Shown here piece after piece: positions 4,119-54,226 of a DNA stretch of 64,000 nucleotides. The stretch lies in the NCBI GenBank assembly GCA_958267355.1, contig OY279575.1, forward strand, positions 540,335-604,334, written 5' to 3'. Under the pieces are notes generated by a model. It ran no database searches. It was not told the origin of the DNA and was given only the letters and a program-made list of their open reading frames with translations. The first letter of the stretch is position 1. Each line of letters opens with the position of its first letter. The translations under genes and the position numbers were made by a program. The stretch comes from an uncultured Alphaproteobacteria bacterium (lineage in GTDB: Bacteria; Pseudomonadota; Alphaproteobacteria; JALCBB01).

Positions 4119-4282
4119 CTGCCTATCACCTGCCCGCCACTGGTGTTCTGGAGCCCAGCAAAAGAGCCTAGAAAATCCGAATTCAATTGAGAAAATCAGC
4201 GTTTCGGTCTATCATACACGGGCTTGCCTAGTTTCTCTCGAGCTTTCCGTTGGAGCCTTTGATTTGGCTTTTTCCTGCTCTG

Positions 4283-4380
4283 TTTCTGTGTCCTTGCGTT
4301 TCTGTGTCTGTGTGTCTTTGTCCCTGTGTTTCTGTGTCTGTGCGTCTTTGTCCCTAGCTTGTCCTTTCGCTTGTCCTTGT
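4283..4380. repeat. about 30-bp tandem repeat (2-3 copies, tgtgtttctgtgtctgtgYgtctttgtccc) in the divergent intergenic region
   Basis: Direct reading; lies between the minus-strand DUF1285 gene and plus-strand moxR. Confidence 0.8.
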
Positions 4381-11461: not shown

Positions 11462-14260
11462 CTACCTGCGGGTTTTGAAGGGGATATAAAGCCCACCTGC
11501 TACGCCATGGGCGGTTTTGCCTCGCTCAATGGAGCCACAGCTAGAGCTTGCGTAGCAGACTTTGCCTCCTGCGAAGTGGGCGGCATAGCCCGACAGGGTG
11601 AAACGGGTGCCTTGAGCCGTGGAGAAGCCTAAAGCCGCCTGTACACCCCGCTCGGTGCCTGTGAGCGAGCGTAAAAGCGAGCCTGTGCCATGAACCGAAG
11701 CCTGTGTTTGCCAGGCGGTCAGGCTGACTTGCGACACGGGGCGTAGTGTGGCGGTGAAGCGCAGGTTTTCGCTACGGGCGAAGGAAAAGCCTTGGCTTCC
11801 CTGCGAGCCGAAGAAGCCATCGGAAGAAAAGCGTGTGGCGGCGACTTGCCAGCGGATTCCTGCGTGATGACCTGCAATAGCGGCTCCGCTTTCGCCTGTC
11901 TTCTCGGAGACCAAGCCGAGCCGTGTTTTGTCCTGCTTTGTGCCAGTGAGCGGCAGAAAAGCCCGCGCCGAAGGCGGAGTCGGCGCATACGCCACCTGTC
12001 CCTGCGGATTGTAGCCAAAGAAGCGGCTTTCGCCTTCGGGTGCAATTGCCAACTTGCCGTTGCTCTGGGCGGGTAGGGAGAGTCCGCCGAACTGCCGCCC
12101 ATAGAAAGCACTCAAAAAGCGAGTTGCGACTCCGCTTGCCCCCGCAGGAGCTGACCGAGTCGCCTTAGCCACTTCTTTTGCGGTTTCGTCTGCGGCACAC
12201 CACAAATCAAATCGCCCACGGCCTGTGTCTTTGTCTAGCCCGACGGCTCCGATATCCACGGAGCATTTATCAAAGATTGCCATAGCATCGCTGGCGGTGG
12301 CGGAAGCGGGCAGGTGTTCCCAGATCATGGTAAAGGCAGAAATGGCACCGCTAGAAGACGAGAAAGAAGTGCCGCCATGAAATTCGCTATTGTCTTTCGC
12401 GTTCATTAGCTTGTAGCGGTAGGGAAAGCCCACGCACCATTTTTCTACGCCTTCACAGCCGTTTGCCCTGTATCTTCCTCTATGGTCTTCTGTGAGTCCG
12501 TAGATGAATCGCACCCGCTCGCTTGTGTCGGCGATATACTTTTGGTTACGCATACCGCCTTGCATATAGGTATCGTCTTGGTCGGGAGAGTCTAGGTTAC
12601 TATTTCCTGTGCCTACGAAGATATAGGGGCCAGCGGGTTGGTTGGTGTTGGTGTTAAAAATATCTCCGAGCTGAATTCCGTGCTTTGAGAAGATGCGGGC
12701 AGTGGCAATGGAGACAACGCCATCGGTGGGTAACGCATTATAGAGTGGCGGTATGTTGTAGGTTGAAAAATTGCCGACTCTATACCGCCCACTGAGTCCG
12801 TCGTTTGCGTCTTTTGGCAGGAGTCGTTTTGCTAGGTTGGTGACTTGATATCCGTGGGTGGTTTTTGTCGCGGGGTTTGGAATGGGACTGTAATAGAAGT
12901 TTTGCCGAGAGATATCTTCGTGATCATGGAAGCTCACATTCAATCCGCCGTTATCCATAATGAAGATACCGCTACGCTTGGTGCGCTGTGCCTTTGTAAG
13001 CCCGTGGTCGCGGAAGACTTGAGCCAGACAGCTTTCTTCATTGCCGTTTAGGTTTTCGCCGATTTGGCAGGTAACGGTTTTGTATCCTTCGGTTCTTTCT
13101 GCGGCACACCAGAGGTCAAACCGCCCGCGGCCTGTGCTTTCGTCTAATCCTGTTGTGCCGAGATCTACGGCACAGCTATCAAAAATTGACATTGCATCGC
13201 TGGCGGTGGCGGAAGCGGGCAGGTGTTCCCAAATCATCGTAAAGGCGGTAAGGGCTCCGCTTGAGGTGGAGATAGAAGAGCCACCAAAAGTCCTTCCCTT
13301 GACCTTGTACTCATCAGGAAAGCCCACGCACCATTTTTCTACGCCCTTGCATCCGTTGGTTCTGGATCGTGCTGTTTGTGCTTGGTTGAGTCCATAGATG
13401 AAGCGCACCCTGTCGCTTCGCATGGCGACGAGTTCTTGATTGCGTATTCCGACTCCTGAGCGTGTGTAGCCGTTATCTTGGTCAGGAGTCATAACACTGC
13501 CATTATTTCCTGTCGGAGCAAAAATGTAAGGCCCCATAGCTTGTTTTGTGACGCTGTCAAAAACATCGGCGACTCCGATACCGCTTCGTTGGAAAAGCAA
13601 ACCATAGGCAATGGCAACTGCACCATTCGTGGGCAGGTTATTGTAAACCACTCGGAACTGGGCTGAAGATGGCGTAGAAGAAGTTATGTAATGCCCCTTG
13701 AAGCCTTTTGTGGCTGGGCTACGACTATCTTTAGGAAGCAACGCATCGGCAACTGTGGTGACTTGGTGTGCGTGAAGATTTGAAGCTGGATTGCTAACAA
13801 TTTGATCGCTGGTTTGAACATCCGTTTTAACACCAAGGAGCGTTTCCGTGTATGTATTTTGAGTGCCTTGACTTGGGTTTCCGCCATTGTCAACGAGGAA
13901 AATATTGTCGCGCTTGGTGCGTGTGAGTTTTCGCCCTTCGCGGAAAGTGCGCGTGAGGCAACTTTCTGTGCCTGTGTCTAAGTCTTGTCCGTTTTGACAA
14001 GCCAGGACTTGCGCCTGTGTAAGTGCCACAGGCGTGCCCACACCCGTGCCAGGCGTAGGAGGCGTAACCACAGGCGGGTCTTGTGGGTCAGGGTCAGGGT
14101 CTGGGTCTGGGTCAGGCTGGGTAACAGGCGCACCGCCACCACCACCGCCGCCACCGCCACCTCCACCACAGGCAACAAGCGGCACAGTAAGTAGCAAAGA
14201 AAGCAACAAGACAACAAAAACACAGAAACCCCGCACGGAAACAAGCCCCGCCCCACTCAT
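11462..14260 (-). CDS. lipoprotein with two tandem S8 (subtilase)-like domains and autotransporter-like C-terminal region
   Basis: Lipobox LVAC followed by a G12 tract and PDPDPDPDPDPQDP linker. Two ~275-aa tandem repeats each carry D (F[L/I][VM]DNGG), H (HAHQV / HGYQV) and S (GSSISTSSG / GTSFSSSSG) subtilase-like motifs. C-terminal ~250 aa show an alternating beta-strand pattern like an autotransporter beta domain. Confidence 0.6.
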   Translation of the reverse strand: MSGAGLVSVRGFCVFVVLLLSLLLTVPLVACGGGGGGGGGGGGAPVTQPDPDPDPDPDPQDPPVVTPPTPGTGVGTPVALTQAQVLACQNGQDLDTGTESCLTRTFREGRKLTRTKRDNIFLVDNGGNPSQGTQNTYTETLLGVKTDVQTSDQIVSNPASNLHAHQVTTVADALLPKDSRSPATKGFKGHYITSSTPSSAQFRVVYNNLPTNGAVAIAYGLLFQRSGIGVADVFDSVTKQAMGPYIFAPTGNNGSVMTPDQDNGYTRSGVGIRNQELVAMRSDRVRFIYGLNQAQTARSRTNGCKGVEKWCVGFPDEYKVKGRTFGGSSISTSSGALTAFTMIWEHLPASATASDAMSIFDSCAVDLGTTGLDESTGRGRFDLWCAAERTEGYKTVTCQIGENLNGNEESCLAQVFRDHGLTKAQRTKRSGIFIMDNGGLNVSFHDHEDISRQNFYYSPIPNPATKTTHGYQVTNLAKRLLPKDANDGLSGRYRVGNFSTYNIPPLYNALPTDGVVSIATARIFSKHGIQLGDIFNTNTNQPAGPYIFVGTGNSNLDSPDQDDTYMQGGMRNQKYIADTSERVRFIYGLTEDHRGRYRANGCEGVEKWCVGFPYRYKLMNAKDNSEFHGGTSFSSSSGAISAFTMIWEHLPASATASDAMAIFDKCSVDIGAVGLDKDTGRGRFDLWCAADETAKEVAKATRSAPAGASGVATRFLSAFYGRQFGGLSLPAQSNGKLAIAPEGESRFFGYNPQGQVAYAPTPPSARAFLPLTGTKQDKTRLGLVSEKTGESGAAIAGHHAGIRWQVAATRFSSDGFFGSQGSQGFSFARSENLRFTATLRPVSQVSLTAWQTQASVHGTGSLLRSLTGTERGVQAALGFSTAQGTRFTLSGYAAHFAGGKVCYASSSCGSIERGKTAHGVAGGLYIPFKTRR

Positions 14261-14481
14261 CCAGCGATTGCCTTCTAGTTGCACGGATTATCCTCCACCA
14301 CCAACCCAATAATAGCCCATCCTACACCCCCACAGAACAAGCCTGTAATAATCGCAAGCAAACCCAAAGTGGGTTATATTAAGTCCCAGCGGAGGCATTA
14401 GCCAACGTTAATGCGGTGACGCACACCGCCACTTCGTGGTGGCGCACGTCGCCGCTCAGCGGTGGCTGACGCCACCGCTTC

Positions 14482-14567
14482 GCGGTTGTGGCGGAATGGT
14501 AGACGCGCAGCGTTGAGGGCGCTGTGGAGGCAACTCCGTGGAGGTTCAAGTCCTCTCAACCGCACCA
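14482..14567 (+). tRNA. tRNA-Leu (anticodon GAG)
   Basis: Acceptor GCGGTTG/CAACCGC, anticodon loop tTGAGgg, long variable arm, T-arm GGTTCAAGTCC, encoded CCA. Confidence 0.85.
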
Positions 14568-15706
14568 TTGTTACGGCGGCTTGCGCCGCCTTTGGGCGCA
14601 TCTGGCTTGCTATCCGCGTCCTACGGACGCGATACGCAAGACCACCTGCGCCTGTGGGCAGTTCCACCACCCTTGTTCTTCACGGGCGTTTCACGCCCTA
14701 CTTAAACAAACGGGCTTCACAAACTTCATACTTACCGTTCGGCCCGCTGGCTAAAACGCCAGCGGGCACTTTGGCGTGTTGTTACATCCGCTCGCGTTCG
14801 TGCCCTACGGGCACTCGGTGGCTAAAGCCGCCACTTCGTGGTGGGTCTTCATCTCTAAAGTCGGGAAAGGGCAAGCCGCTATTTCCCCGTCTTCGTCTTA
14901 CTGGTGGGTTAAGCCTTTATAGGGCTTCATCTCAAAGTTAATCTGTGCCTTCCCCATCTTTACAGTACCCTGATTTCTAAGCCGCAGAAAAATGGGTAAG
15001 TGTTGGGCTTTCTCGCAACATTTTTTACGCACGCTTGCGCGGGCTTTGGGCGCATCTGGCTTGCTATCCGCGTCCTACGGACGCGATACGCAAGACCACC
15101 TGCGCCTGTGGGCAGTTCCACCACCCTTGTTCTTCACGGGCGTTTCACGCCCTACTTAACTGACGGGCTTCACAAGCTTCACACATACCGTATGTCCCGC
15201 TGGCTAAAACGCCAGCGGGACACTTGGCAGTGCGGCATTCGTGCCAGCCCTTGTTTCCCCCACCAGCTGTTAAGCCCCATAGTTTTAGTGACGGGTTAAT
15301 TGAGCCGATACCCCTTGCGGGGGGAGCGTGAGATTAGGGGGATTAACTGGCTCCCGTTATGGAGATGAAGACGGGAGAAGTAGCGGCTTGCCCCTTTGCG
15401 GGGGGAGCGTGAGATTAGTGGGATTAACTGGCTCCCGTTATGGAGATGAAGACCCACCGAGCACCCGTAGGGTGCGAACGCGAGCGTAGCGGAGTGAAAC
15501 GAGCGGAGCGAAGCGGACACCGCGTAGCGGCGGCTTTAGCCACCGCGAAGCATCTTGCGCGTAGCGCAAGGCTTCGCGGCACTAGGCGGCGTAAGCCGCC
15601 GTAACTTAAACAGTGAGAGAAAGTCCGCCCCTAACCCCTTTTTCTGCGGCTCAGAAATCAGGGTAGTAAGAAGACAGGAGGATAACGGCTTACTCGCGGG
15701 TTAGAT
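14568..15706. repeat. repeat-rich non-coding region (right flank of island), direct and inverted repeat mosaic
   Basis: A ~117-bp perfect direct repeat at 14589-14705 and 15044-15160, extending with mismatches to about 200 bp. Inverted copies of 9953-10441 elements. Palindromic pairs at 14795-14860 versus 15455-15500. Six-frame ORFs here are not protein-like. Confidence 0.8.
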
Positions 15707-16321
15707 TCAAGCAGTCTTGCGGACATAAGCGCGGGAGCGGTGTTCAGGGCAGTAGGGACTGTCTTCAGTCGCTGGCGATCCGCAAAAGTGAAAATCAGGA
15801 GTCTTCGGAGTACCCATCGGCCATTGACACGGCCTGCCACCAGTCCGCACAACAGGCACCTGCTCCGCACCAGACTTCTTCGCCACAGAAGCACTAGAAG
15901 CACCACCAGAAGCACCACCAGAAACCCGCGGACGAAACGCCGCCACTTCCTGACCACCCTTGCCACCAGTGCCACCAGCACCACCAGCTCCAGCCTTAGC
16001 CTTCGCGCCACTCGCACCACCACGAGCATTACGTAAGCTCTGCTCCGCTTCTTGAGCGCGAAGCGAAACCCATTCCTCGCCCGCCGCCCTAGCGTTGCTG
16101 CCATGGGAATCACCCCCACGCCTGCTAGGAGGACTCAAAGCCACTCCAGCCCCAGCACTGCCCCCCGTGTTGCCAGGCACAGCCCGCGCCAAGCCCAAAC
16201 GATGCGCCTTGCCAATCACCGCATTCTTGCTATATCCCAAACGCTCGCCAATCTGGCTCGTGGTCAAACCACTGCCCCAGAGCTCCTTGAGTTCAGAAAC
16301 TTTTTCTTCAGTCCAAGCCAT
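15707..16321 (-). CDS. gcrA: cell-cycle transcriptional regulator GcrA
   Basis: N-terminus MAWTEEKVSELKELWGSGLTTSQIGERLG, Gly/Ala-rich linker, C-terminus CQWPMG...FHFCG...YCPEHR. Start at ATG 16321. Confidence 0.88.
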   Translation of the reverse strand: MAWTEEKVSELKELWGSGLTTSQIGERLGYSKNAVIGKAHRLGLARAVPGNTGGSAGAGVALSPPSRRGGDSHGSNARAAGEEWVSLRAQEAEQSLRNARGGASGAKAKAGAGGAGGTGGKGGQEVAAFRPRVSGGASGGASSASVAKKSGAEQVPVVRTGGRPCQWPMGTPKTPDFHFCGSPATEDSPYCPEHRSRAYVRKTA

Positions 16322-16613
16322 AGTCAGGTCTCTCCAATATCTAGTGCCAGCGATACCTTCGCTGACCAAGTATAGAAGCGATTCGCCACAGCGCATCACA
16401 ACAGCACAACATATTGGGGGAAATCTAACGAATTCCCCAAAAGAGTTTTCTCCCCGTTCCACAAACTGTGGAAAGTCATCCAGTAAATGAACCACCACCA
16501 GCCAAAATAAAACAAAACACGAATCAAATCCTACAAAAACAAATTCACAAACCACAATAAACACCGAAAATATATAAACTTTCAGATTCTTCTTAGATTA
16601 TTACCAGATTCTT

Positions 16614-17930
16614 CTAAGAAATCCGCCGCGAACCCTCGCGCACAAGCTTTTCCAACGCCTCACGCAAGCCAGAAGCAGGAAAACCCTTCAAAATCATATC
16701 CGCTTCAGCCAATAAGCCACTCGCCTCCCCACGAACCATATCACCCACCCCATGCCGCACCAGCAAAGCTTGAGCTAGCTTTAAATTGTCCTTCATAGAC
16801 GCTGTATTGCTCCGTGAAGGCGATTCGTTTGATTCAGGGTGTTGTGGTGCATCTTCGCCACTTTGCTCGCCCACAGCGGCTTTCTGGAAGGCTTTGTGAG
16901 TGGCTTTCTGGATGGCTTTATGGGGGGCTTTGTGAGTGGCTTTCTGGTGGGCTTCGTGAGTGGCTTTATGGGTAGCTTTGTGAGCGGCTTTCTGACCTTC
17001 GCCTGATTGCTCGCCTTCATCGCTTCGCTCACCCCCGCTGGCTCGCCCAATCGCCACAGAATCCGCCAACACAGGGCTATTTCCCTGATTGCTCTCCTCC
17101 ACCAGAACCCGATGCCAAAAAGCCCGCTCAGAATCATCTCCCGCCTGCCACGCAAGCCACACAGGCAAAGTCATCCGCCCATCACGCAAGTCATCGCCCG
17201 CCGCCTTGCCCGTAACCGCACTTCCGCCTTCGTAATCAAGCAAATCATCCACCATCTGGAAGGCAAGCCCAATCGCTTGCCCAAATTCCGCCATCGCCGC
17301 CCGCTTGCTACCCACAGGCGGCTCAGCCAAGTTTTCAGGCTCCACCAAACAAGCCCCCGCTTCACAAGCCGCCGAGAATAAAGCCGCAGTCTTACCCTCC
17401 ATCACGGCAATGATTTCAGCCCGCGTCAGGTCGGTGCGGCGGGTTGTCCGTAGCCCCAGCATCTCACCTTCAGACACAGTAATCGCCGCCCGCGCCAAAA
17501 CCTGCAACGCCGACGGACAGCCAACTTCAACAATCAAACCAAATGCCCGTCCAAGCAAAAAATCACCCGTCAAAACACTCGCCTTGTTGCCCCAGACAAC
17601 ATTGGCGGCAGGCTGTCCGCGGCGGAGCGCACCCAGATCCACCACATCATCGTGCAGTAAAGTCGCAGAGTGCATAAGCTCCACAGCCGCCGCCAGCTTG
17701 TGCGCCTTAGGTAGCTCGTCAGGCGGAGTCCCACACAAGTGCGCCGCCGCACAAGTCAGCAACGGACGTAACCGCTTGCCCTCCGCGTCTAGCAGGTGTC
17801 CCGCAATTTCAGACACCAGCGGCACATGCGAAGCTACCTGCTGGCGCAAAATGTCAGCCACGGCTTCAGTATCAGGGGCAAGCCGCTCGGCAAGTCCTGC
17901 GGTGTTGCGGATTGTTTGCGGGTTCTGCAT
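16614..17930 (-). CDS. ispB: polyprenyl diphosphate synthase (IspB-like) with in-frame repeat insertion
   Basis: First aspartate-rich motif LLHDDVVD, second DDxxD motif FQMVDDLLD, and the substrate-binding Lys-Arg-Leu-Arg motif EGKRLRP. About 90-aa low-complexity insertion (HKATHKATHEAHQKATHKAPHK...) encoded by tandem ~30-bp repeats at 16880-17000. Confidence 0.82.
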   Translation of the reverse strand: MQNPQTIRNTAGLAERLAPDTEAVADILRQQVASHVPLVSEIAGHLLDAEGKRLRPLLTCAAAHLCGTPPDELPKAHKLAAAVELMHSATLLHDDVVDLGALRRGQPAANVVWGNKASVLTGDFLLGRAFGLIVEVGCPSALQVLARAAITVSEGEMLGLRTTRRTDLTRAEIIAVMEGKTAALFSAACEAGACLVEPENLAEPPVGSKRAAMAEFGQAIGLAFQMVDDLLDYEGGSAVTGKAAGDDLRDGRMTLPVWLAWQAGDDSERAFWHRVLVEESNQGNSPVLADSVAIGRASGGERSDEGEQSGEGQKAAHKATHKATHEAHQKATHKAPHKAIQKATHKAFQKAAVGEQSGEDAPQHPESNESPSRSNTASMKDNLKLAQALLVRHGVGDMVRGEASGLLAEADMILKGFPASGLREALEKLVREGSRRIS

Positions 17931-18092
17931 AAGATATAGGGCAGGAGATATAGGGCAGGGCTGGCAGTGTGATTCGGTACGATTCAGTGCGACTCAGTGT
18001 GGCAATCGCTCGCTTCAATCCGTGGTAAGACTAGCGGAAATAGACCACACACAGACTAGCCTAAACCCACAAGAACTAGGGATAAACAAACC

Positions 18093-19019
18093 GTGGCAGA
18101 AGTCGCCAAGCCAGTAGGCACCTTTCAGGAGATGATCTTCCGCCTAGAGCAATTCTGGGCAGGGCACGGCTGTGTGGTCTTGCGTGGCTACGACAAAGAA
18201 ATGGGGGCAGGGACTTTTCATCCCGCAACTGCGCTTTATGCTTTGGGGCCGTACAATCCGTGGCGTTGTGCTTATGTTCAGCCGTCTCGCCGTCCGACCG
18301 ATGGGCGGTATGGAGAAAATCCGCATCGCCTACAACGCTACTATCAGTTTCAGGTCTTGCTAAAGCCCGCTCCTGAAGACTCGCGAGAGCTTTACGAAGC
18401 AAGCCTAGCGTATCTTGGCTTAGATAAACGCCGCCACGATTTTCAATACGCCGAAGACGATTGGGAGAGTCCAACTCTGGGGGCTACAGGGCTTGGCTGG
18501 GAAGTCCGTTGCGATGGGCTAGAAATCACCCAGTTCACCTACTTTCAAAAGATGGGCGGGATTGAATGTAATCCGCCATCGGTAGAGCTTACCTACGGAC
18601 TAGAGCGTATCGCCAGCATTGTGCAAGAACGCGATAGCGTTTATGACCTAGCGTGGAACAAAGACTTCACCTATGGCGAAGTTCATCACCAAGTGGAAAT
18701 AGACTTCAGCAAGTACAACTTTGAACAGGCTGACCTAGAAGCCTTACGCCACGACTTTGACCAAGCCGAAGCCAGCGTCAAGCAGATGCTAGACAGGTTT
18801 GACTCAGCCGAAGCCGAATTCGCCGAAGTGCTAAGGGGTGAAGCTGTGCTAGCGGCTTACGACAAGTGCCTTGAAGCTTCGCATCTGTTTAATCTTCTTG
18901 ACGCACGGGGCGCGATATCTCCACAGGTAAGGCAGGAGATGATCTTGCGCGTGCGCAAGCTTGTCACGCGGGTTTGCCAAGCCTGGAAGGGTCAAGTAGG
19001 AGCACAAGACAATGGCTGA
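18093..19019 (+). CDS. glyQ: glycine--tRNA ligase alpha subunit
   Basis: [18 protein letters not shown]...[21 protein letters not shown]...YYQFQV, conserved across the protein. Confidence 0.95.
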   Translation: [308 protein letters not shown]

Positions 19020-21186
19020 ACTATTCGTTGAGCTTTATGGAGAAGATTTTCCAGGCTGGGCACAAGAAAAAGGGAGTAGGCAACTTTCTGACCTATTGTA
19101 CGAGGCTCTAAAAAAAAGAAATTTGCTTGATAAAAGAGCAGACTCAATTGGTTATGCATCACCACGCCGATTTGCGGTGCAAGTTGAAGGGGTCTTACCC
19201 GAAAGCAAGGCACAAGAAATTGAAACCCGTGGCCCACGCGAAGGGGCAAACGAAAAAGCACTTGAAGGCTTTTTGCGTAAGGCGGGTTTTTCTTCAACCG
19301 AAGACCAAGGGGTAGAGTTACGCGAAACCCCTAAGGGCAAGTTCTGGTTTGCGACCAAGCTTGTGCCACCAAGTTCTGCTGAAAAAGAAGTACCTGAAGC
19401 GATAGTTGAAACACTTCTTGCAACGCGTTGGCGAAAGTCGATGCGCTGGGATGCAAGTGGATTTCGCTGGCCGCGTCCGTTGCGTCGCTACACAATCTTG
19501 CTTGATGGAAACCCTTTATGTCTTCCCGATTCAGAAAGGCTACCCTCACTTAGGGGGGGCACGAATGAAATAGAAATTGGTGAAGAATATATAGCGGTGT
19601 CTAGCAAAGAAGATTGGCTCAAAATTTTAAAAGCCAAAGGTATTGAACCATATGCTCAAACGAATAAGAGAGGCGTACAGATAGTGACAGAGTCACAGGA
19701 AATGTCCACGCCTCGCTACTCTTCACGCTTCCATATTGAAAGACCATCTCTCCTAGTAATTCACCCTAAAGCAAAAAATTTACCCGAATCTTTTGTCCCA
19801 GTTATCTTAAAATATCATCTTGGTGTGTACGAAAGATCCGAAGGTGGGTATTATTACTCAGCTTCCCTGCCATATGGGCTAGAGGGAGGGGCAGAATCCG
19901 AATGGGAGCAGAAAACTATTAAGCAAGTTGAGAAGGTTGCACAGGCGCGCCTAGACGATGCCCGATTTTACTGGGAGCGGGATAAAAAAATTGGAGTAAA
20001 AGAGCTTCAAAACCGCTTAGACAAAATTAATTTCCACCCAAAACTTGGATCAATTCGTATGCGGGCAGAACGCATAGCCAACTTAGCTAAAGAAATTGCA
20101 GGGCTATTAGGAGAACAGGATGAGAAAGAATTAGAGCATATTCAAAAAGTAACTTTATACTCTCTGTGCGACTTAGCTTCTGGGACTGTGGGTGAAATTC
20201 CTAGTTTAGAGGGGTTTGTTGGTGCCAAGCTTTTTGCAGAAGAAAAAGATTTAGCTCCATATGAAAATTTTCCACTTGCTGCTCACCTAGCGTTAAGTAT
20301 TCGCGAGAGAAAATTTGTCGTACAGGAATTTTCTATTTCTTTGGCCTCGTTATTGGATTATTTGGTTGGCTTTATAGCAGCTGGTGAGCAGTCAACAGGC
20401 TCAACCGATCCATATGCTTTGCGTTCTAAGGGTGAACTTATATGTAGCTATCTAATTCATCCTAATTATAGGCTGACAGATTTGAATTTTGATGAGCTAA
20501 TGCTTAATGTAATGAATATTTATCTTGAAAATGCAGATATAAACACAAAAAATTTACCAAACGATGCTCCCGACTTTAGGGGGGGTAGTCGTAAAATTGA
20601 AGAAGATGTAATCAATTTTTTGAAAGATAGATTGGAGCGTTATCTGCAGTGGGCAGAAAAGATTCCTTATGATGTGACTCGTGCGGTGTTAAATACTTCT
20701 GGAAATGAAGATAGGGCTTACTTTGTATCAATTAAAAACTATGCGGTAAATCTAAGAAATCTTCTTTACTCCTCCGAAGAGGAAGAAAGGCAGAAGGTAG
20801 AAAAATTGCTTGTTGCTTGGCGACGAGCACAAGGATTGCTAAGAGGGGTTGAGCTTAAGTTAAATTCTTCTGATAAAGTGCTATCAGAAGAGGGAGAAAA
20901 ATTTAAAATGGCACTCCAGAATGCGAAACAACGCTTAGATGCTAAGCTTAAACCTTCTTTACGAGTGGAGATATTGGCAGAGCTTAGCGAACCTGTGAGT
21001 GCGTTTTTAGACGCAGAAAAAGTCTTGGAAGGCACAGAGCAGGAGCAACAGGCACGGCTGGCACTTTTAGACCGATTTATACAGGTGGTTAAGCAGGTGG
21101 CAGACTTGGATTATATTGAAGGGGGCGATATAACCGCTCGTAAGGACTTTGCTTATTATAGTAAAGTGTCTAACTCTACTGACTAG
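19012..21186 (+). CDS. glyS: glycine--tRNA ligase beta subunit
   Basis: Overlaps glyQ by 8 nt and has a GlyS-like N-terminus. The middle of the gene (~19500-20950) is markedly AT-rich compared with its surroundings. Confidence 0.85.
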   Translation: MAELFVELYGEDFPGWAQEKGSRQLSDLLYEALKKRNLLDKRADSIGYASPRRFAVQVEGVLPESKAQEIETRGPREGANEKALEGFLRKAGFSSTEDQGVELRETPKGKFWFATKLVPPSSAEKEVPEAIVETLLATRWRKSMRWDASGFRWPRPLRRYTILLDGNPLCLPDSERLPSLRGGTNEIEIGEEYIAVSSKEDWLKILKAKGIEPYAQTNKRGVQIVTESQEMSTPRYSSRFHIERPSLLVIHPKAKNLPESFVPVILKYHLGVYERSEGGYYYSASLPYGLEGGAESEWEQKTIKQVEKVAQARLDDARFYWERDKKIGVKELQNRLDKINFHPKLGSIRMRAERIANLAKEIAGLLGEQDEKELEHIQKVTLYSLCDLASGTVGEIPSLEGFVGAKLFAEEKDLAPYENFPLAAHLALSIRERKFVVQEFSISLASLLDYLVGFIAAGEQSTGSTDPYALRSKGELICSYLIHPNYRLTDLNFDELMLNVMNIYLENADINTKNLPNDAPDFRGGSRKIEEDVINFLKDRLERYLQWAEKIPYDVTRAVLNTSGNEDRAYFVSIKNYAVNLRNLLYSSEEEERQKVEKLLVAWRRAQGLLRGVELKLNSSDKVLSEEGEKFKMALQNAKQRLDAKLKPSLRVEILAELSEPVSAFLDAEKVLEGTEQEQQARLALLDRFIQVVKQVADLDYIEGGDITARKDFAYYSKVSNSTD

Positions 21187-27130: not shown

Positions 27131-30100
27131 ATGCGCTTTGAAAGGTTTCACACCGTCGCGGGAGAGTCTCCCTATCGCGGAATAGAATTCAAGACCGTGT
27201 CTTCGGTGATGCGCAATCCTGATGGACAGGTTGTATTTGAAGCCCAGAATATTCAGGTGCCCGAGTTTTGGAGCCAAGTCGCAACCGATATTTTAGCCCG
27301 TAAGTATTTCCGCAAACGCGGTGTGCCGACTGTTCTACGCCGCGTGGAAGAAGAAGGCGTACCTGCCTTCCTGTGGCGGAGTGAAGCAGACGAAGCGGCT
27401 TGCGCTGACCTGCCCGAAGACCAGCAAGAAGGCGGAGAAACCGACGCACGGGCGGTCTTCAATCGCCTAGCAGGGGCATGGACTTATTGGGGCTGGAAAG
27501 CAGGAATTTTCTCCGCAGAAGAAGATGCACAGGTTTTCTACGATGAGCTGTGTCACCAACTCGCACGGCAAATGGCTGCACCCAATTCTCCGCAGTGGTT
27601 TAACACAGGACTCCATTGGGCATACGGCATTGAAGGCCCACCACAAGGCCACTGGTACTGGGACGAAGAAAAGCACCGCTCCGTGCCAAGCGAAAGCGCC
27701 TATGCACGTCCGCAACCACACGCCTGCTTTATTCAGTCTGTTGAAGATGATCTGGTCGGCGCAGACGGAATTATGGATCTATGGCAACGCGAAGCCCGTC
27801 TGTTCAAATACGGCAGTGGTAGCGGCACAAATTACTCGGCTTTGCGCGGGGCGGGAGAGTCTTTATCAGGTGGAGGCGAATCTTCAGGCTTGATGTCGTT
27901 CCTGCAGATTGGCGATAGAGCCGCTGGTGCGATTCGCTCAGGCGGCACAACACGGCGGGCGGCGAAGATGGTGACCCTAGATGCGGATCATCCTGATGTT
28001 GAAGAATATGTCTCCTGGAAGTGGGTAGAAGAGCAGAAAGTAGCGTCTCTGGTCGCAGGAGCTGCTCTGTGCCGTAAGCACTTGAATCGCGTTCTACGAG
28101 CAGCACAGGAAGGCACAGAAGCCACTGAAGGCGCAGGAGGCAATAGAGGCAAAACAGGCAATACAGAAGGCACAGCAAGTGCGTTAGAGACGGCAAGTGC
28201 GTTAGAGACAGCAAGTGCGCTAGAGACAGCAAGCGCGCTAGAGAGAGAGTCGCTCCAGAAGAATCCCGCCCTGCGGAGTGCAGTCCGCCAAGCCCGAAGA
28301 GCAGGAGTGCCAGAAAACTATATCCGCCGTGCCGTGCGTATGGCAGAGCTAGGACAATCCGAGTGGGATTTTCCGCTCTACGACACCGATTGGGATAGCG
28401 AAGCCTACCGCACCGTGTCAGGGCAGAATTCCAATAACTCTATTCGCCTGCCCGACGCATTTCTGCAAGCCGTAGAAACCGACAGCGAATGGCACCTAAC
28501 CCGTCGCACCGATGGAGCAGTTTCCAAAACTCTACGCGCCCGCGACCTGTGGAAACGCATCGGCTGGGCAGCTTGGCATTCAGCTGACCCAGGCGTGCAG
28601 TTTGATACAACGATTAATGAATGGCACACCTGTCCCGCCGATGGACGAATTCGCGCCAGCAATCCCTGTTCGGAATATATGTTCTTGGATGATACGGCTT
28701 GCAACTTGGCTTCTTTAAACCTGTTGCGCTTTCTGGCAGAGCCAAACGAAGCATCACAAGAAGGACAAGAAAAATCAGAAACAGGCGAAGCCTTCCGCGT
28801 TGAAGCCTTTGAACAGGCAGTACGCCTATGGACTGTTGTCTTAGAAATTTCTGTGACCATGGCGCAGTTTCCGTCTGCCCAGATCGCCGAACGCTCGTGG
28901 AGATTCCGCACCCTTGGTCTGGGCTATGCCAACTTAGGGGCTCTGCTGATGTCTCTGGGGCTTGGCTACGACTCAAAAGAAGGTAGGGCATTGGCAGGTG
29001 CCGTAACCGCACTGCTCGGCGGAGTTTCATGGCGCACTTCAGCTGAGTTGGCAGAACAACTCGGCTCGTTTGCTGGCTATGCCGCAAACCGCGAGTCGCT
29101 CCTGCGGGTTCTGCGCAACCACAGACGCGCCGCCGCAGGAGAACAAGAAGACTACGAGTCGCTTTCCATCTTGCCCGTGGCACACCAAGAAGCCGAGTGT
29201 CCGCTTCCAAGTGTGAGTCGGGCAGCCCTGCAGGCTTGGGATGATGCCCTAGAGCTAGGCAACACCTGCGGCTTTCGCAACGCGCAAACCACTTGTATTG
29301 CTCCGACAGGCACGATTGGCTTGGTTATGGATTGTGACACCACAGGCGTTGAGCCAAACTTTGCTCTTGTCAGCTTCAAGCAGTTAGCAGGGGGCGGATA
29401 CTTCAAAATGATTAACCGTGCCGTGCCACAAGCCCTGCAAGCTTTGGGCTATGACGAAGTCGCAATTCAAGAAATGATCCGCTACGCCACAGGACACGCA
29501 ACTCTGGCAGGGGCTCCGGGAGTCAATCACGAAACCCTACGCGCCAAAGGCTTTAGCGACTCGGTGCTGGAAGAAGTAGAACGAATTTTGCCCGGAGTCT
29601 TCTCTATTCGCTTTGCCTTCAATCGTTGGACTTTGGGCGAAGACTTCTGCCGTGAAACCTTGGGCTTAACCGAGTCCGATTTAGCAGACCCATCTTTAGA
29701 CTTGCTGGCGCGTATTGGCTTCACCGCAAGTGATATTGAAGCAGCAAATCGCTTCTGCTGTGGGTCAATGTCGTTGGAAGGTGCACCCGAACTGCGTAGT
29801 GATCATCTAGCCGTATTTGATTGCGCGGTCTTGTGTGGCAGCGAAGGAACGCGGGTGCTGGCTCCGCGTAGCCATGTGGATATGCTCGCCGCTGTCCAGC
29901 CGTTTATCTGCGGCAGTATTTCTAAGACAATTAACCTACCGCCCACCGCCACCGTAGAAGACTGCATGGACGCCTACCACAGGTCTTGGCGTTTGGGCTT
30001 GAAAGCCAATGCACTCTACCGTGATGGCTCTAAGCTGTCGCAACCGCTGGTCTCTGCCTTCTTGGATGACCTAGAAGACGAAGCCGAAGACAGCGACAGA

Positions 30101-31216
30101 GACGAAGCAATAGAGCTAGACCAAGCCCTGCATTTGCCAAGCGAGTCGGTTGATGACGGAGAAGAAGTTCGTGTACCACTGCGCGAGCGTTTGACCGATC
30201 CCGTGCCTGAAAAACGCGCCGAAGCCGTAGCCGAGCTGGCAGCAAAAGCCATTGCCCGTGGCAAACGCGATCCCTTGCCCTCACGGCGTTCGGGCTATAC
30301 ACAAAAAGCTTCTGTCGCAGGACACAAAATTTACCTGCGGACAGGCGAATATCAAGATGGCGCACTGGGCGAAATCTTTATTGATATGCACAAAGAAGGC
30401 GCGGCGTTTCGCTCTTTGATGAATAACTTTGCGATTGCGGTTTCTATTGGCTTGCAATACGGCGTGCCATTAGAAGAATATGTTGAAGCCTTCACCTTCA
30501 CGCGGTTTGAACCCGCAGGAGCCGTGAGCGGTAACAATATGGTCAAGATGGCGACTTCTATTCTGGATTATGTCTTCCGTGAATTGTCCATTAGCTATTT
30601 AGACCGCTACGACTTAGGGCATGTGGCTCCTGAAGACCTGCTTGCCGACACAACAGGCCACGGAGCTAAATCTAAAGGACGCAACGAAGCTGGCGAAGCA
30701 ATTTCAGCCGCCACTCTGGCTGGCGGAATGTCACGCGGCTTCGGACGTGGCGGATTGCGTCTGGTCTCGGGCGGAGCGGGGCAAGACTCGCGACAGGCTG
30801 TTCATAGGGAAGACCAAGAAGGAGAAAAGGTAGCAGAAGCGGTTTCTGGGCAAGCGGGTGCTGTCGCTGGTGCTACAGGTGCGCCAACGGGTGCGCTAAC
30901 AGGCACAACAGCCAGTGTCGCAACAGGAATGCTAACAGGAGCCATAGCAACAGGCGGTGTCGCGGCTACAGGAGCCGCTACGGCACAAGAAGTTTTTATT
31001 GCTTCAGATACTGTTTCTGATACCGCTTCGGCTATTCCTTCAGGTATCGCTTCAAGCGGCGGGGAGGTAATGCACTCCACTGCCAGCCGTTCGGCAAAAG
31101 CCAAACTGCAGGGCTATTCAGGAGACGCCTGCACCGATTGCGGGAATTTCACCCTGATGCGAAATGGCTCGTGCCTGTCTTGTGCCACCTGTGGAGCGAC
31201 TACAGGCTGTTCTTGA
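27131..31216 (+). CDS. nrdJ: ribonucleotide reductase; class II (B12-dependent, NrdJ) inferred from size and C-terminal CxxC tail, with low-complexity insertions
   Basis: RNR catalytic core (NPCSEY, conserved barrel segments) and C-terminal CxxC...CxxC tail. In-frame (ASALET)x4 repeat at 28174-28245 and Ala/Gly/Thr-rich region about 30830-31000. Confidence 0.88.
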
Positions 31217-31779: not shown

Positions 31780-31959
31780 TTGGAGTCTCCATTGTTCAAG
31801 GGCGTAGCGGGCTAAAGACAGGGTTTGTAGAGTCAGCAGGGGTAGCAGGTTTAGAAGTCAGGTTTATAGGCGAAAAACGCGTAGTTGGTAAGATAGTTGG
31901 TGAAGGCAGTTGGTAAGACATTTGGTGAAGGGCAATCGGGGGAGCTGTGTAACCGCTCT

Positions 31960-32300
31960 TTCAACGATTCTTGCCTCCCACACGGCTTGTATGCCCGCTA
32001 CAGGGCTTTATTCCCGCCACAGGCACAAAGTCCCCACAGGGCTTTATAGGGCTTCCACGGGGCTTATAGGGCTTGTACAGGGCTTTTCCACTGCCCCTAA
32101 GGCTTGGTACCGCCACAGGGCTTATAGGGCTTCCACGGGGCTTATAGGCTTCTATATGGCTTCTAGGGGGCTTATGGGGCTTGTGAAGGGCTTGTATGCC
32201 CGCTACAGGGCTTTATCCCGCCACAGGCACAATGATAGCCCTACAGGGCTTATAGGGCTTCTACGGGGCTTATAGGCTTCTATATGGCTTTCTAGGGGGC
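31960..32300. repeat. GGGCTTATAGGGCTT-type degenerate tandem array with two ~100-bp direct repeats
   Basis: 31990-32090 roughly matches 32195-32295, both built from 10-12-bp GGGCTT(A/C)T(A/G)G units. The same motif family appears at 1060-1190, 36285-36300 and 38020-38075. Confidence 0.8.
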
Positions 32301-33338
32301 TTATAAGGCTTCCACGGGGCCTATGGCTGCCGCACGGCTTACCCGCTCGCGTAGGGCTTCAGCAGAGACAGGGAGAGGGGCTACAACAATCGCCGTAGCC
32401 CCAGAGACTTCCAGACGGCGTAGAGCCGCAAACAGGTTATGGGCGGCTTGTTGGGGGTTTCCTGATGGGCTTAAGGTTTCTGCCGCCAGTGGCGTTCCTA
32501 TCGGCTCTGTGGAGCCAAAACCAAGCCAAGCTTCACTACGCTCCACCCGTGGCGATTCGCCCTGCCGTAGAAGCCGCACAGGAATAGCAGGAGCGTAATG
32601 CCTGAAATGTCTCCCTGGGGATAAGGGGCGGGACTCTACCGCTACGGCTTCCGTGGCTTCTATAGCTATAGCTTCTGTGGCTTCTGTGGCTTCAGGCAAG
32701 GCGGCTAGGGGTGCGCCCAAGACTTCTTCTAACTCTGGGCGGGAAATCGCTCCGTAGCGCAAAAGGGTAGGGGCTTTGTCAGGCAGGCACAGGACAATTG
32801 TCGACTCAAGTCCGTGTTCGCTGGCTCCTGCGTCTAGGATGAGTGCAGGGGCAAATTCACTCTCGGCAAAATCATCTGCTACATGCTGGGCTTCGGTAGC
32901 ACTCGGTCTGCCCGACCGATTAGCACTCGGAGCCGCAATAGGACAATGAACCGCTTTCAACAAATCTTGGGCAACAGGGTGCGCAGGAACCCGCACCGCA
33001 AGGGTAGGCAAATTCGCCGTCACCGCAGAAACAATCGCAGAATCCATAAGTGGAGCCACAAGGGTTAAAGCTCCAGGCCAGAAGGCTTCACCAAGCCGCT
33101 TGGCTGTGTCATCAAAGGAACAGGTTTTTTCCGCTTCTGCCCGATTGCCAAGATGCACAATCAACGGATTCACCGCAGGACGATTTTTCGCCGCGTAAAG
33201 ACGGGCAATAGCTTGCCCGTTGGTTGCGTCGGCTCCTAAGCCATAAACCGTTTCGCTAGGAAAGGCGACAAGTGCGCCCTGAGTCAGCTCTTGTGCGGCT
33301 TGGTCTATCGTCTCGGCAGTCGGAGAGACAAGTTTCAT
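32301..33338 (-). CDS. tsaC: L-threonylcarbamoyladenylate synthase (Sua5/YrdC type)
   Basis: YrdC motif AFPSETVYGLGADATN and a C-terminal Sua5 domain. In-frame ATEA(T/I) repeat at 32641-32700. Confidence 0.88.
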   Translation of the reverse strand: MKLVSPTAETIDQAAQELTQGALVAFPSETVYGLGADATNGQAIARLYAAKNRPAVNPLIVHLGNRAEAEKTCSFDDTAKRLGEAFWPGALTLVAPLMDSAIVSAVTANLPTLAVRVPAHPVAQDLLKAVHCPIAAPSANRSGRPSATEAQHVADDFAESEFAPALILDAGASEHGLESTIVLCLPDKAPTLLRYGAISRPELEEVLGAPLAALPEATEATEAIAIEATEAVAVESRPLSPGRHFRHYAPAIPVRLLRQGESPRVERSEAWLGFGSTEPIGTPLAAETLSPSGNPQQAAHNLFAALRRLEVSGATAIVVAPLPVSAEALRERVSRAAAIGPVEAL

Positions 33339-38018: not shown

Positions 38019-38019
38019 G

Positions 38020-38125
38020 GGCTACTGCTTAGGGGGTACTGCTTAGGGCTATTGCTTAGGGGCTATTCTATACTCCGTCTTGTTTGCCCGATTCACCGCT
38101 GGATTCACCGCTGGATTCACCGATG
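38020..38125. repeat. two adjacent minisatellites: (CTACTGCTTAGGGG)x4 then (GGATTCACCGCT)x3
   Basis: Direct reading of the fhs-bioY intergenic region. Confidence 0.85.
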
Positions 38126-38220
38126 GGCTTGCATTCTAGCTCTAGCCGTTTAAGGTATTCTTCTTGTTGCTCTAACCAGCCAACGCGATATCCAACACAA
38201 CAAAGGGAAGGGTTCAGACA

Positions 38221-43632: not shown

Positions 43633-43695
43633 ATCCTAGACAAAGCACACTTTAAACAAAATACACTTTAGACAAAGCACACTTTAGACAAAACA

Positions 43696-49539: not shown

Positions 49540-49680
49540 CATTTGCGTAGTTTAAAGTATGATTGGACTATAGCCCACTGGAGCGCATTGAAATCCACTG
49601 GGAAGCCCACTGGTAAGCCTACTGGGAAACCCACAGGGAAGCGCCCACTGGTAAGCTCACTGGGAGACACACAGAAACCG
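49540..49680. repeat. 12-bp tandem repeat (CCCACTGGTAAGC-like, ~6 copies) in the lptG/pepA divergent region
   Basis: Direct reading. Confidence 0.85.
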
Positions 49681-53889: not shown

Positions 53890-54012
53890 TTAAGCAAAAA
53901 TAAACGCGAGAATAATAAGAACAATTGCCGCAGAAACGAAGCCAATACCCATTCCGCGAATGAAGTTGGTGTAGGTTTGCTTGCGCTCTTCTTCTGAAAC
54001 TTGTGCGGTCAT
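53890..54012 (-). CDS. small membrane protein resembling bacterial aa3-type cytochrome c oxidase subunit IV
   Basis: 40 aa (MTAQVSEEERKQTYTNFIRGMGIGFVSAAIVLIILAFIFA) with GGAGG 7 nt upstream of ATG 54012. The listed ORF 53890..54342 is over-extended through a tandem repeat. Confidence 0.5.
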   Translation of the reverse strand: MTAQVSEEERKQTYTNFIRGMGIGFVSAAIVLIILAFIFA

Positions 54013-54029
54013 GGTGATTCCTCCCGTGG

Positions 54030-54190: not shown

Positions 54191-54226
54191 TTAAGGATTC
54201 CAGTACTTGCGCCAATTGGCAAGACT

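What the first reader, a model, noticed from the sequence alone, without database searches (positions are those of the whole stretch)
16880..17000. In-frame minisatellite inside an essential isoprenoid gene (ispB)
Tandem ~30-bp repeats (ggctttgtgagtggctttctggatggctttatgg...) encode an HKAT(H/E)KA... insertion of about 90 aa in the C-terminal helical region of an otherwise canonical polyprenyl synthase. The repeat unit is a multiple of 3, so the frame is preserved.
Basis: seen in the sequence. Interest (0 to 1): 0.5.

Follow-up and report, generated by a model that had tools for sequence, protein, structure and literature searches.

The report
Variable tetrapeptide repeat in IspB loop
A 12-base repeat sits in frame inside a working polyprenyl diphosphate synthase gene of an uncultured alphaproteobacterium, where it lengthens a floppy surface loop; its copy number runs from 2 to 10 among near-identical co-occurring strains, which makes it a real but probably harmless slippage product in a repeat-rich genome.

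Summary
Window 16875-16994 (minus strand) holds 9 full units and one partial unit of a 12-bp repeat, AAA GCC NNN CAY, encoding (K/E)-A-x-(H/Q). The array lies in a 438-aa polyprenyl synthase (16614-17930, PF00348, E 1e-62) whose catalytic residues are all intact.

The array is 39 aa of a 97-aa insertion. That segment is 9 residues long in 85 of 85 other homologues. AlphaFold2 predicts it disordered (pLDDT <50), against >90 for most of the core.

Five strains from one HiFi metagenome are 98.4-99.0% identical outside the array, with no indels there. They carry 10, 9, 7, 6 and 2 units. A sister lineage has a 39-aa insertion at the same site, with no KAxH repeat but its own 15-bp repeat in 1-3 copies. 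So the linker is older and the array is a recent expansion.

dN/dS is about 0.09 in the core and about 1.0 in the insertion. Array codons (AAA, GCC, CCC) are rare or absent elsewhere in the gene. Tandem arrays are about 9 times denser in this window than in 80 reference loci.

Best reading: a near-neutral coding VNTR made by slippage. Interest is modest. Separately, the neighbouring glyS is strikingly hypervariable between strains.

The parts
16614..17930 (-). Long-chain trans-polyprenyl diphosphate synthase gene (IspB/DdsA family), 438 aa
   Evidence: ORF. PF00348 matches at E 9.7e-63 over residues 37-280. Best solved relatives are 4jxn and 3mzv at E 1e-68 and 1e-66. The AF2 model matches 3mzv and 3oyr with target TM-score 0.91-0.93. 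Core dN/dS is 0.09-0.10.
17637..17651 (-). First Asp-rich motif, DDVVD (residues 94-98)
   Evidence: Read directly from the sequence. D94, D95 and D98 are invariant in 88 homologues.
17235..17249 (-). Second Asp-rich motif, DDLLD (residues 228-232)
   Evidence: Read directly from the sequence. D228, D229 and D232 are invariant in 88 homologues.
16788..17084 (-). Lineage-specific loop insertion (residues 283-381, about 97 extra aa) between helix 266-282 and helix 374-392
   Evidence: The PDB alignment jumps from query residue 282 to 382 while the 3mzv chain advances only from 273 to 277. The segment is 106 aa here, 78 in P0002, 48 in P0003 and 9 in all 85 other homologues. pLDDT is below 50 for 285-337 and 344-370. 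dN/dS is about 1.0. A search of 1.84 billion representative proteins gave only one weak low-complexity hit.
16875..16994 (-). 12-bp tandem array AAA GCC NNN CAY: 9 full units (16884-16991) plus a partial unit, encoding (K/E)A x (H/Q), residues 314-352
   Evidence: TRF, unit dissection, pattern search with 6 matches against 0.04 expected. Copy number is 10, 9, 7, 6 and 2 in five strains that are 98.4-99.0% identical outside the array.
16995..17015 (-). Upstream copy of a 21-bp imperfect direct repeat (GGCGAGCAATCAGGCGAAGGT, encoding GEQSGEG) flanking the array
   Evidence: Read. It matches the downstream copy at 17 of 21 bases.
16851..16871 (-). Downstream copy of the flanking direct repeat (GGCGAGCAAAGTGGCGAAGAT, encoding GEQSGED)
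   Evidence: Read.

Best explanation
The feature is a coding variable-number tandem repeat. A 12-bp motif (AAAGCC-NNN-CAY) was amplified by replication slippage or unequal recombination inside an older, lineage-specific, disordered surface-loop insertion of a functional IspB/DdsA-type polyprenyl diphosphate synthase. Because the unit is 12 bp, every gain or loss keeps the frame and only lengthens or shortens a protruding loop. That loop lies after the second DDxxD helix and outside the helices that form the dimer interface, so the enzyme tolerates the changes. The array therefore drifts quickly in copy number and unit order between strains. It is one case of a general tendency of this repeat-rich genome to carry in-frame repeats and low-complexity inserts in housekeeping proteins. 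Shown here: the array, its frame, copy-number polymorphism, intact catalytic residues, purifying selection on the core, neutral-like evolution of the insert, and predicted disorder. Inferred: slippage as the mechanism, the lack of any effect on enzyme function, and the exact spatial position of the loop.
For: (1) Five alleles carry 10, 9, 7, 6 and 2 units while the other 1209 nt of the gene are 98.4-99.0% identical with no indels. Each of the five alleles sits on two or more assembled contigs, and the contig names returned for this sample come from both a hifiasm and a hifiasm-meta assembly. (2) Synonymous sites in the units are frozen: AAA/GAA in 34 of 34 units, GCC in 32 of 34, and CCC for all 12 Pro. 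The rest of the gene uses AAG for 10 of 10 Lys, GCG for 30 of 52 Ala, and CCC for 0 of 14 Pro. This points to amplification of a DNA motif, not selection for a peptide. (3) Between the two lineages, core dN/dS is 0.09-0.10 and insertion dN/dS is 0.92-1.10. Amino-acid identity is 91% (N-terminal core) and 81% (C-terminal core), against 27% in the insert. (4) The sister lineage has a different repeat at the same site, a 15-bp unit encoding x-E-Q-T-P in 1, 2 or 3 copies (proteins of 377, 382 and 387 aa). The site, rather than any particular peptide, is what tolerates repeats. (5) AF2 gives pLDDT above 90 for most of the core (271 residues) and below 50 for residues 285-337 and 344-370. All family-invariant residues are kept. 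(6) Tandem arrays occur at 4.2 per 10 kb in the window against 0.45 per 10 kb in 736 kb from 80 other genomes. In-frame repeats are also seen in class II RNR, Mfd and GcrA. AspS and GcrA show strain-variable low-complexity indels. Repeat-free RecG and FTHFS keep a constant length in every full-length cluster member but one (a 788-aa RecG), and GlyQ is 308 aa in the A strains.
Against: No biochemical data exist, so a functional role for the peptide is not excluded. His or Gln is kept at unit position 4 and Lys or Glu at position 1 in all 34 units; this could reflect constraint rather than recent common descent. The dN/dS estimate for the insert rests on only about 41 alignable codons in a low-complexity alignment. 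The genome-wide claim rests on 64 kb plus 13-kb loci, not on the whole 1.86-Mb genome. The position of the loop relative to the active site was argued from helix order, not measured on coordinates.
Confidence: 0.75

Rival explanations
1. The Lys/His-rich (K/E)AxH array is a selected functional module. It could be a divalent-metal-binding His ladder, or a cationic tether that brings the synthase to the membrane or to a partner such as the prenyltransferase that accepts the product. Copy number would then act as a tuning knob between strains.
For: His or Gln at unit position 4 and Lys or Glu at position 1 are kept in all 34 units. A spacing of four residues would line His up on one face of a helix, and AF2 draws weak helices at 320-329 and 337-352. 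All eight alleles stay in frame.
Against: Copy number ranges five-fold (2-10) among strains at 98.4-99% identity. The sister lineage lacks the motif entirely and has an acidic/Pro repeat instead. Pro is frequent at unit position 3, which disfavours a helix. Synonymous sites are frozen on codons that are rare in the gene, which indicates DNA-level copying. Insert dN/dS is about 1 and pLDDT is below 50. In-frame preservation follows automatically from a 12-bp unit.
Confidence: 0.12
2. The array, or its length variation, is an assembly or sequencing artefact.
For: Tandem repeats are a known source of assembly error, and all the data come from one metagenome sample.
Against: The contigs are long-read (hifiasm) assemblies, including circular contigs of about 1.86-1.90 Mb. 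Each allele sits on 2-3 contigs. All length differences are exact multiples of 12 bp (15 bp in the sister lineage), with distinct unit orders and intact flanks.
Confidence: 0.02
3. The gene is a decaying or functionally released paralogue, and the insert marks the onset of pseudogenisation.
For: The insert is large and evolves neutrally. A few fragmentary, frameshifted copies exist on short contigs (P0123, P0124, P0126).
Against: Core dN/dS is 0.09-0.10. All 61 family-invariant residues, including both DDxxD motifs, are kept. Synteny glyS-glyQ / ispB-gcrA is conserved in both lineages. There are eight intact alleles.
Confidence: 0.03
4. The array is a contingency (phase-variation) locus that switches expression on and off.
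For: It is a hypervariable repeat within a gene.
Against: The 12-bp unit cannot shift the frame. All alleles are in frame. The product is a cytoplasmic biosynthetic enzyme, not a surface structure.
Confidence: 0.02

Closest known systems
IspB / DdsA long-chain trans-polyprenyl diphosphate synthases (e.g. PDB 3mzv Rhodobacter capsulatus decaprenyl-PP synthase, 3oyr Caulobacter, 3wjk/5ze6 E. coli octaprenyl-PP synthase)
   Same: Same fold (target TM-score 0.90-0.93). About 45-50% sequence identity to alphaproteobacterial homologues. Both DDxxD motifs, the GKRLRP motif, and a small Ala at position -5 before the first DDxxD, as in long-chain enzymes.
   Different: It carries 97 extra residues where 85 of 85 homologues have a 9-residue connection, plus a smaller insert of about 7 aa near residue 200. 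The NCBIfam equivalog cut-off is not reached. Product chain length is unknown.
Coding VNTRs / in-frame minisatellites of bacteria (the kind used in MLVA typing and described mostly in surface and stress-related proteins; from general knowledge)
   Same: Head-to-tail units whose length is a multiple of 3, copy-number polymorphism among very close strains, conserved flanks, and homogenised unit sequence.
   Different: The host gene is a cytoplasmic core-metabolism enzyme rather than a surface or host-interaction protein. No phenotype is attached.
Low-complexity, repeat-bearing loop insertions in housekeeping proteins of Plasmodium falciparum (from general knowledge; see also PMC2705789, listed)
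   Same: Insertions between conserved blocks of otherwise canonical enzymes, predicted to be disordered loops, fast-evolving and length-polymorphic, and occurring in many housekeeping proteins of the same genome.
   Different: This is a bacterium with a mid-GC genome (about 53%), not an AT-extreme eukaryote. The repeats are K/A/H/T-type and other mixed motifs rather than Asn/Lys runs. The genome-wide extent has been seen only in 64 kb.
Histidine-rich repeat proteins and loops (e.g. Hpn, HypB His stretches, PfHRP2 AHH repeats; from general knowledge)
   Same: Regularly spaced His in a short tandem peptide repeat.
   Different: There is only one His per four residues, often replaced by Gln. The motif is not conserved in the sister lineage. 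No metal-binding evidence exists. The only database hit to the insert is a 102-aa HKAV-repeat ORF at E 4.5e-4.

Membership tests
trans-polyprenyl diphosphate synthase (Pfam PF00348) | Profile match above the gathering threshold | tested here: met
   212 bits against a cut-off of 27, E 9.7e-63.
trans-polyprenyl diphosphate synthase (Pfam PF00348) | Two Asp-rich DDxxD motifs, plus the conserved Lys/Arg residues that bind substrate diphosphates in this family (role from general knowledge) | tested here: met
   DDVVD at 94-98 and DDLLD at 228-232. K52, R53, R55, K180, K242, R103 and R104 are invariant across 88 homologues and present here.
trans-polyprenyl diphosphate synthase (Pfam PF00348) | All-alpha isoprenoid synthase fold | tested here: met
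   AF2 gives pLDDT above 90 for 271 residues, nearly all in the core. Foldseek target TM-score is 0.91-0.93 to 3mzv and 3oyr.
Long-chain (C40-C50) IspB/DdsA subgroup | Small residue at position -5 before the first DDxxD (chain-length determinant), and closest relatives that are long-chain enzymes | tested here: met
   The sequence is MHSATLLHDDVVD, with A89 at -5, the same as the consensus of 88 IspB-like homologues. The top PDB hits are octaprenyl and decaprenyl diphosphate synthases.
Octaprenyl diphosphate synthase equivalog (NCBIfam NF008140) | Score above the curated equivalog cut-off | tested here: not met
   179.9 bits against a cut-off of 412. The exact product length should therefore not be asserted.
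Long-chain (C40-C50) IspB/DdsA subgroup | Enzymatic product length and essentiality | not testable with these tools
   Needs an enzyme assay or genetic complementation.
Coding VNTR (in-frame minisatellite) | Head-to-tail tandem copies beyond chance | tested here: met
   TRF scores 101-121. 6 pattern matches against 0.04 expected.
Coding VNTR (in-frame minisatellite) | Unit length a multiple of 3 within a verified reading frame | tested here: met
   12-bp unit. Homology to the family continues on both sides of the array.
Coding VNTR (in-frame minisatellite) | Copy-number polymorphism between closely related genomes with conserved flanks | tested here: met
   10, 9, 7, 6 and 2 units. Flanks are 98.4-99.0% identical with no indels.
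Contingency / phase-variable locus | Repeat changes shift the frame or alter promoter spacing so that expression toggles | tested here: not met
   Unit is 12 bp. All eight alleles are in frame.
His-rich metal-binding repeat | Conserved His clusters with demonstrated metal binding | tested here: inconclusive
   His occupies unit position 4 in 26 of 34 units and Gln in the rest. The motif is absent from the sister lineage. Binding cannot be tested here.
Mobile-element-derived in-frame insertion (MITE/REP-like) | Other copies of the inserted DNA elsewhere in the genome | tested here: not met
   blastn of the insert against the 64-kb window gave a best off-site hit of 20 bp at E 0.05. Only this window was searched.

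The most novel reading that the evidence does not exclude
The lineage may have a genome-wide, Plasmodium-like habit of growing polymorphic in-frame repeats and disordered inserts in essential cytoplasmic enzymes (IspB, class II RNR, Mfd, AspS, GcrA). This could be tied to an unusual replication or repair background, or to life as a multi-strain host-associated population. Within that, the IspB (K/E)AxH array could act as a copy-number-tunable cationic/His module that affects metal binding or membrane hand-off of the polyprenyl product. The extreme allelic divergence of the adjacent glyS would then belong to the same unusual population biology.
Probability: 0.1. Interest if true: 0.6.

Novelty: new member of a known kind. 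Interest (0 to 1): 0.35.

Why it matters
The locus shows directly, from long-read metagenome assemblies, that a core isoprenoid enzyme can carry a fast-mutating coding minisatellite without losing purifying selection on its catalytic core. It also marks a loop of the IspB fold that tolerates about 100 extra residues, which is useful for protein engineering or tag insertion. In practice the array is a ready-made strain-typing marker for this uncultured symbiont-like alphaproteobacterium. It also flags the genome as unusually rich in repeats. It does not, on present evidence, reveal a new mechanism.

Tried and rejected
1. I searched the 99-aa insert alone against 1.84 billion representative proteins. 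There was one hit (E 4.5e-4), a 102-aa HKAV-repeat ORF matched on low complexity, so no homologous domain was found.
2. blastn of the insert DNA against the window found no other copy, so a mobile-element origin is not supported.
3. A GTDB genome scan with the protein found no close relative (best 48-52% identity). The organism could not be named, and no further alleles were found.
4. I searched with the class II RNR to test whether its TASALE repeat also varies between strains. The strain-level relatives were not returned (best 64%). The search only showed that this RNR also carries several lineage-specific inserts.
5. An exact-sequence cluster look-up failed for six window ORFs (RNR, Mfd, LptF/G and others), probably because my start codons differ from the called genes.
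6. Two literature searches for in-frame repeats in bacterial housekeeping enzymes gave no direct precedent. A third gave only the general helix and dimer-interface layout of trans-prenyltransferases.
7. Readings considered and rejected: phase variation (the unit is 12 bp), assembly artefact (multiple long-read assemblies with exact multiples of the unit), and pseudogene (core dN/dS 0.09).

Full report
**What is at the coordinates**

The + strand between 16,875 and 16,994 reads GGCTTT-NNN-NNN over and over. Tandem Repeats Finder reports 16878-16994 with period 12 (9.8 copies, score 101) and higher-order periods 24 and 36 (scores 120 and 121). On the minus strand the unit is AAA GCC NNN CAY. There are nine full units at 16884-16991 and a truncated tenth (AAA GCC GCT) at 16875-16883. 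A degenerate two-unit pattern matches six times here and nowhere else in the 64-kb window, against 0.04 expected from shuffles. The unit is 12 bp (four codons), not about 30 bp.

**The host gene**

- The array lies in frame in a 438-aa ORF on the minus strand, 16614-17930.
- The ORF matches Pfam PF00348 (polyprenyl synthetase) at E 9.7e-63.
- Its best solved relatives are the Roseobacter and Rhodobacter octaprenyl and decaprenyl diphosphate synthases, 4jxn and 3mzv, at E 1e-68 and 1e-66.
- In an 88-sequence alignment, all 61 invariant family positions are present. These include DDVVD (94-98), DDLLD (228-232), the GKRLRP motif, and the small Ala at position -5 before the first Asp-rich motif that is typical of long-chain enzymes.
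- The NCBIfam octaprenyl-diphosphate-synthase equivalog scores 180 bits against a cut-off of 412. 'IspB/DdsA-type long-chain synthase' is justified. A specific product length is not.
- The neighbours are gcrA on one side and, divergently, glyQ-glyS on the other. GcrA points to an alphaproteobacterium.
- The window belongs to a circular 1.86-Mb contig from a long-read (hifiasm) assembly of one ENA metagenome sample.
- No GTDB species representative has an IspB closer than about 50% identity.

**The insertion**

In the alignment to 3mzv, the query jumps from residue 282 to residue 382 while the solved chain advances only from 273 to 277. Across 88 homologues, the segment between window residues 279 and 384 is:

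| Protein | Segment length (residues) |
|---|---|
| Window protein | 106 |
| P0002 | 78 |
| P0003 | 48 |
| All 85 others | 9 |

The window protein therefore has 97 extra residues, of which the repeat supplies about 39 (residues 314-352).

AlphaFold2 with the 88-sequence alignment gives a confident core: 271 residues have pLDDT of 90 or more. It places the insert between helix 266-282 and helix 374-392, with pLDDT below 50 for 285-337 and 344-370. The model superposes on long-chain polyprenyl synthases with target TM-scores of 0.90-0.93, so the whole known fold is present and the insert is additional.

In trans-prenyltransferases the dimer interface is formed by core helices alpha4-alpha6, and the DDxxD motifs line the pocket (PMC7887238). 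The insert comes after the helix carrying the second DDxxD motif, so by helix order it lies outside the interface helices. This placement is an inference from helix order. I could not measure distances on coordinates.

**Related sequences: two layers of history**

The protein search returned the window protein itself and two near relatives (410 and 382 aa), then nothing closer than 57% identity, and those more distant proteins have no insert. The 90%-identity clusters hold further alleles of 442, 438, 430, 426 and 410 aa, and of 387, 382 and 377 aa.

Group A (five alleles):
- Outside the array, the 1209 nt are 98.4-99.0% identical pairwise, with no indel at all.
- The arrays contain 10, 9, 7, 6 and 2 units, and the order of unit variants differs.
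- Each allele occurs on at least two assembled contigs, and the contig names returned for this sample come from both hifiasm and hifiasm-meta assemblies.
- All length differences are exact multiples of 12 bp.

This is genuine copy-number variation, not assembly noise.

Group B (three alleles):
- It is about 91% amino-acid identical to group A in the N-terminal core. The adjacent PPDK gene is about 89% nt identical.
- It carries a 39-aa insertion at the same site, with no KAxH unit.
- It has its own 15-bp repeat (x-E-Q-T-P) in 1, 2 or 3 copies.
- The C-terminal part of the insert is recognisably shared...ESNESPSRSNTASMKDNLK in A against ...PTSESASQGSTGDIRDNLK in B.

So a linker of about 40 aa pre-dates the A/B split. 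The KAxH array, with its flanking GEQSGE direct repeat (17 of 21 nt identical), is a later expansion specific to group A.

**Evidence on selection**

- Nei-Gojobori dN/dS between A and B is 0.09-0.10 for the core. The enzyme is under strong purifying selection.
- For the alignable insert codons it is 0.92-1.10.
- Amino-acid identity is 91% and 81% in the two core parts, against 27% in the insert.
- Among the 34 units, nucleotide positions 2, 3, 5, 10 and 11 never vary. Variation is concentrated at positions 1, 7-9 and 12.
- Synonymous positions are frozen on codons the rest of the gene avoids. Lys is AAA in every Lys unit, while the gene uses AAG for 10 of 10. Ala is GCC in 32 of 34 units, while the gene uses GCG for 30 of 52. 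Pro is CCC in 12 of 12 units, while the gene uses CCC for 0 of 14.

The last point is the signature of a DNA motif copied by slippage or unequal exchange, not of a peptide maintained by selection. Exact 12-mers (AAAGCCACTCAC) recur at 24- and 36-bp spacing in the window allele, which gives substrates for misalignment.

**Genomic context**

- Tandem arrays occur at 4.2 per 10 kb in the window, against 0.45 per 10 kb in 736 kb of ispB neighbourhoods from 80 other genomes.
- In 18 of the 27 arrays in the window, a period is a multiple of three.
- In-frame repeats sit in class II ribonucleotide reductase (TASALE x4), Mfd (three arrays), GcrA (GGAS) and other ORFs.
- The RNR carries several lineage-specific inserts relative to a 56% identical homologue.
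- Between strains, AspS gains or loses a TETGPKTSPKTS block and an SGSQEKGAQK block. The GcrA linker also varies.
- Repeat-free proteins keep a constant length in nearly all full-length cluster members: RecG is 728 aa (one member is 788 aa), FTHFS is 556 aa, and GlyQ is 308 aa in the A strains and 312 in the B strains.

The ispB array is therefore one instance of a property of the lineage.

**Other origins tested**

- The insert has no homologue among 1.84 billion representative proteins. The one hit is a low-complexity HKAV-repeat ORF at E 4.5e-4.
- There is no second copy of the insert DNA in the window.
- Phase variation is excluded by the 12-bp unit.

**Most likely mechanism**

Replication slippage or unequal recombination amplifies and contracts a 12-bp motif inside a pre-existing disordered surface loop of a functional long-chain polyprenyl diphosphate synthase. 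The frame is preserved automatically, the loop tolerates the changes, and the array drifts. My confidence is about 0.75.

The main rival (about 0.12) is that the Lys/His-rich array is a selected metal-binding or membrane-tethering module. His or Gln and Lys or Glu are kept at fixed unit positions. Against it stand the five-fold range in copy number, the frequent Pro, the absence of the motif from the sister lineage, the codon evidence and the neutral dN/dS. Only biochemistry can close this question.

**Comparison with what is known, and novelty**

The locus behaves like a bacterial coding VNTR. It also resembles the low-complexity loop insertions of Plasmodium housekeeping proteins, a comparison made from general knowledge. 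It is a member of the PF00348 long-chain synthase family, and all defining features I could test were met except the NCBIfam equivalog cut-off. I found no earlier description of a polymorphic repeat in this loop of IspB, but the kind of feature is known. It is a new member of a known kind, of modest interest (0.35).

**Seen in passing: glyS**

The most surprising thing nearby is glyS.
- Its protein is only 51-58% identical between most strain pairs (75% for one pair), although the ispB cores of the A strains are about 99% identical.
- dS is about 1.2-1.6 for most pairs, and dN/dS is about 0.2-0.36.
- GC is 42-46%, against about 53% for the window.
- The flanking PPDK gene is 96-97% nt identical among the A strains, and GlyQ is 93-99% amino-acid identical across all strains.

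I did not resolve why.

Noticed in passing
window 19012-21186 (+), glyS; compare L084 2724-4919, L085 2712-4919, L086 2757-4919, L002 2743-4923, L088 2800-4923: glyS (glycyl-tRNA synthetase beta subunit) is hypervariable between co-occurring strains. Amino-acid identity is 51-58% for most pairs (75% for one pair), dS is about 1.2-1.6 for most pairs, dN/dS is 0.21-0.36, and GC is 42-46% against about 53% for the window. The gene ends are conserved. The flanking PPDK gene is 96-97% nt identical among the A strains and ispB is about 99%. glyQ shows intermediate dS (0.13-0.37) with no A/B clade structure. The window's GlyS is a singleton at 90% clustering. The cause is unknown; candidates are recombination with divergent alleles, balancing or diversifying selection, or relaxed constraint.
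   Followed up: partly
window 28172-28244 (+), inside ORF 27131-31216: The class II (B12-dependent) ribonucleotide reductase carries an in-frame 18-bp repeat encoding TASALE x4 (92% matches). It sits within an insert of about 37 aa that is absent from a 56% identical homologue. Two further lineage-specific inserts lie near residues 539-553 and 1000-1025.
   Followed up: partly
window 57466-57497, 59382-59428, 60215-60319 (+), inside ORF 56862-60836: Mfd/TRCF (1324 aa) carries three in-frame tandem arrays: LTPAAF x2, EGKSERKG x2, and a 15/30-bp N/R/K/D-rich array.
   Followed up: no
L084 9170-11089, L001 4125-6044 against L086 9107-10960 (aspS); window 15707-16564 (gcrA): AspS gains or loses a TETGPKTSPKTS block and an SGSQEKGAQK block between strains of the same group. 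The low-complexity linker of GcrA also varies (AGA and GGAS indels). The called 285-aa GcrA ORF is probably over-extended: homology, and the sister-lineage gene, start at MAWTEEK, which is residue 81.
   Followed up: partly
window 14200-15750: The region between gcrA and the 940-aa ORF holds a tRNA gene (14482-14564), direct repeats of about 209 nt spaced 454 nt apart (14568-14775 and 15022-15228), a 62-nt repeat pair, and several long inverted repeats. Gene order downstream of gcrA differs between strains: the window and L085 have a 940/1010-aa protein with no Pfam match, while L084, L086 and L001 have aspS-rnd-recJ. This suggests a strain-specific insertion or rearrangement next to the tRNA.
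   Followed up: partly
window 31883-32312; 43610-43696; 38015-38126; 17932-17999; 4281-4355: There are several intergenic tandem arrays. Examples are roughly 20-bp CCACAGGGCTTATAGGGCTT-like units across about 400 bp, a 16-bp unit x5.4, and two short arrays in the ispB/glyQ divergent promoter region. Array density in the window is about 9 times that of 80 reference loci.
   Followed up: no
window 11462-14284 (-), repeats at 14085-14169: A 940-aa ORF with no Pfam match has a lipoprotein-like N-terminus followed by Gly x12 and (PD)x6 runs.
   Followed up: no
window 53890-54342 (-), repeats at 54059-54174; window 49595-49665: A 24-bp array encodes TANATGNN-like repeats in a 150-aa ORF with no family match. 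A 12-bp array encodes FPVG x4 in the N-terminal extension of the LptF/LptG ORF, which may lie upstream of the true start codon.
   Followed up: no
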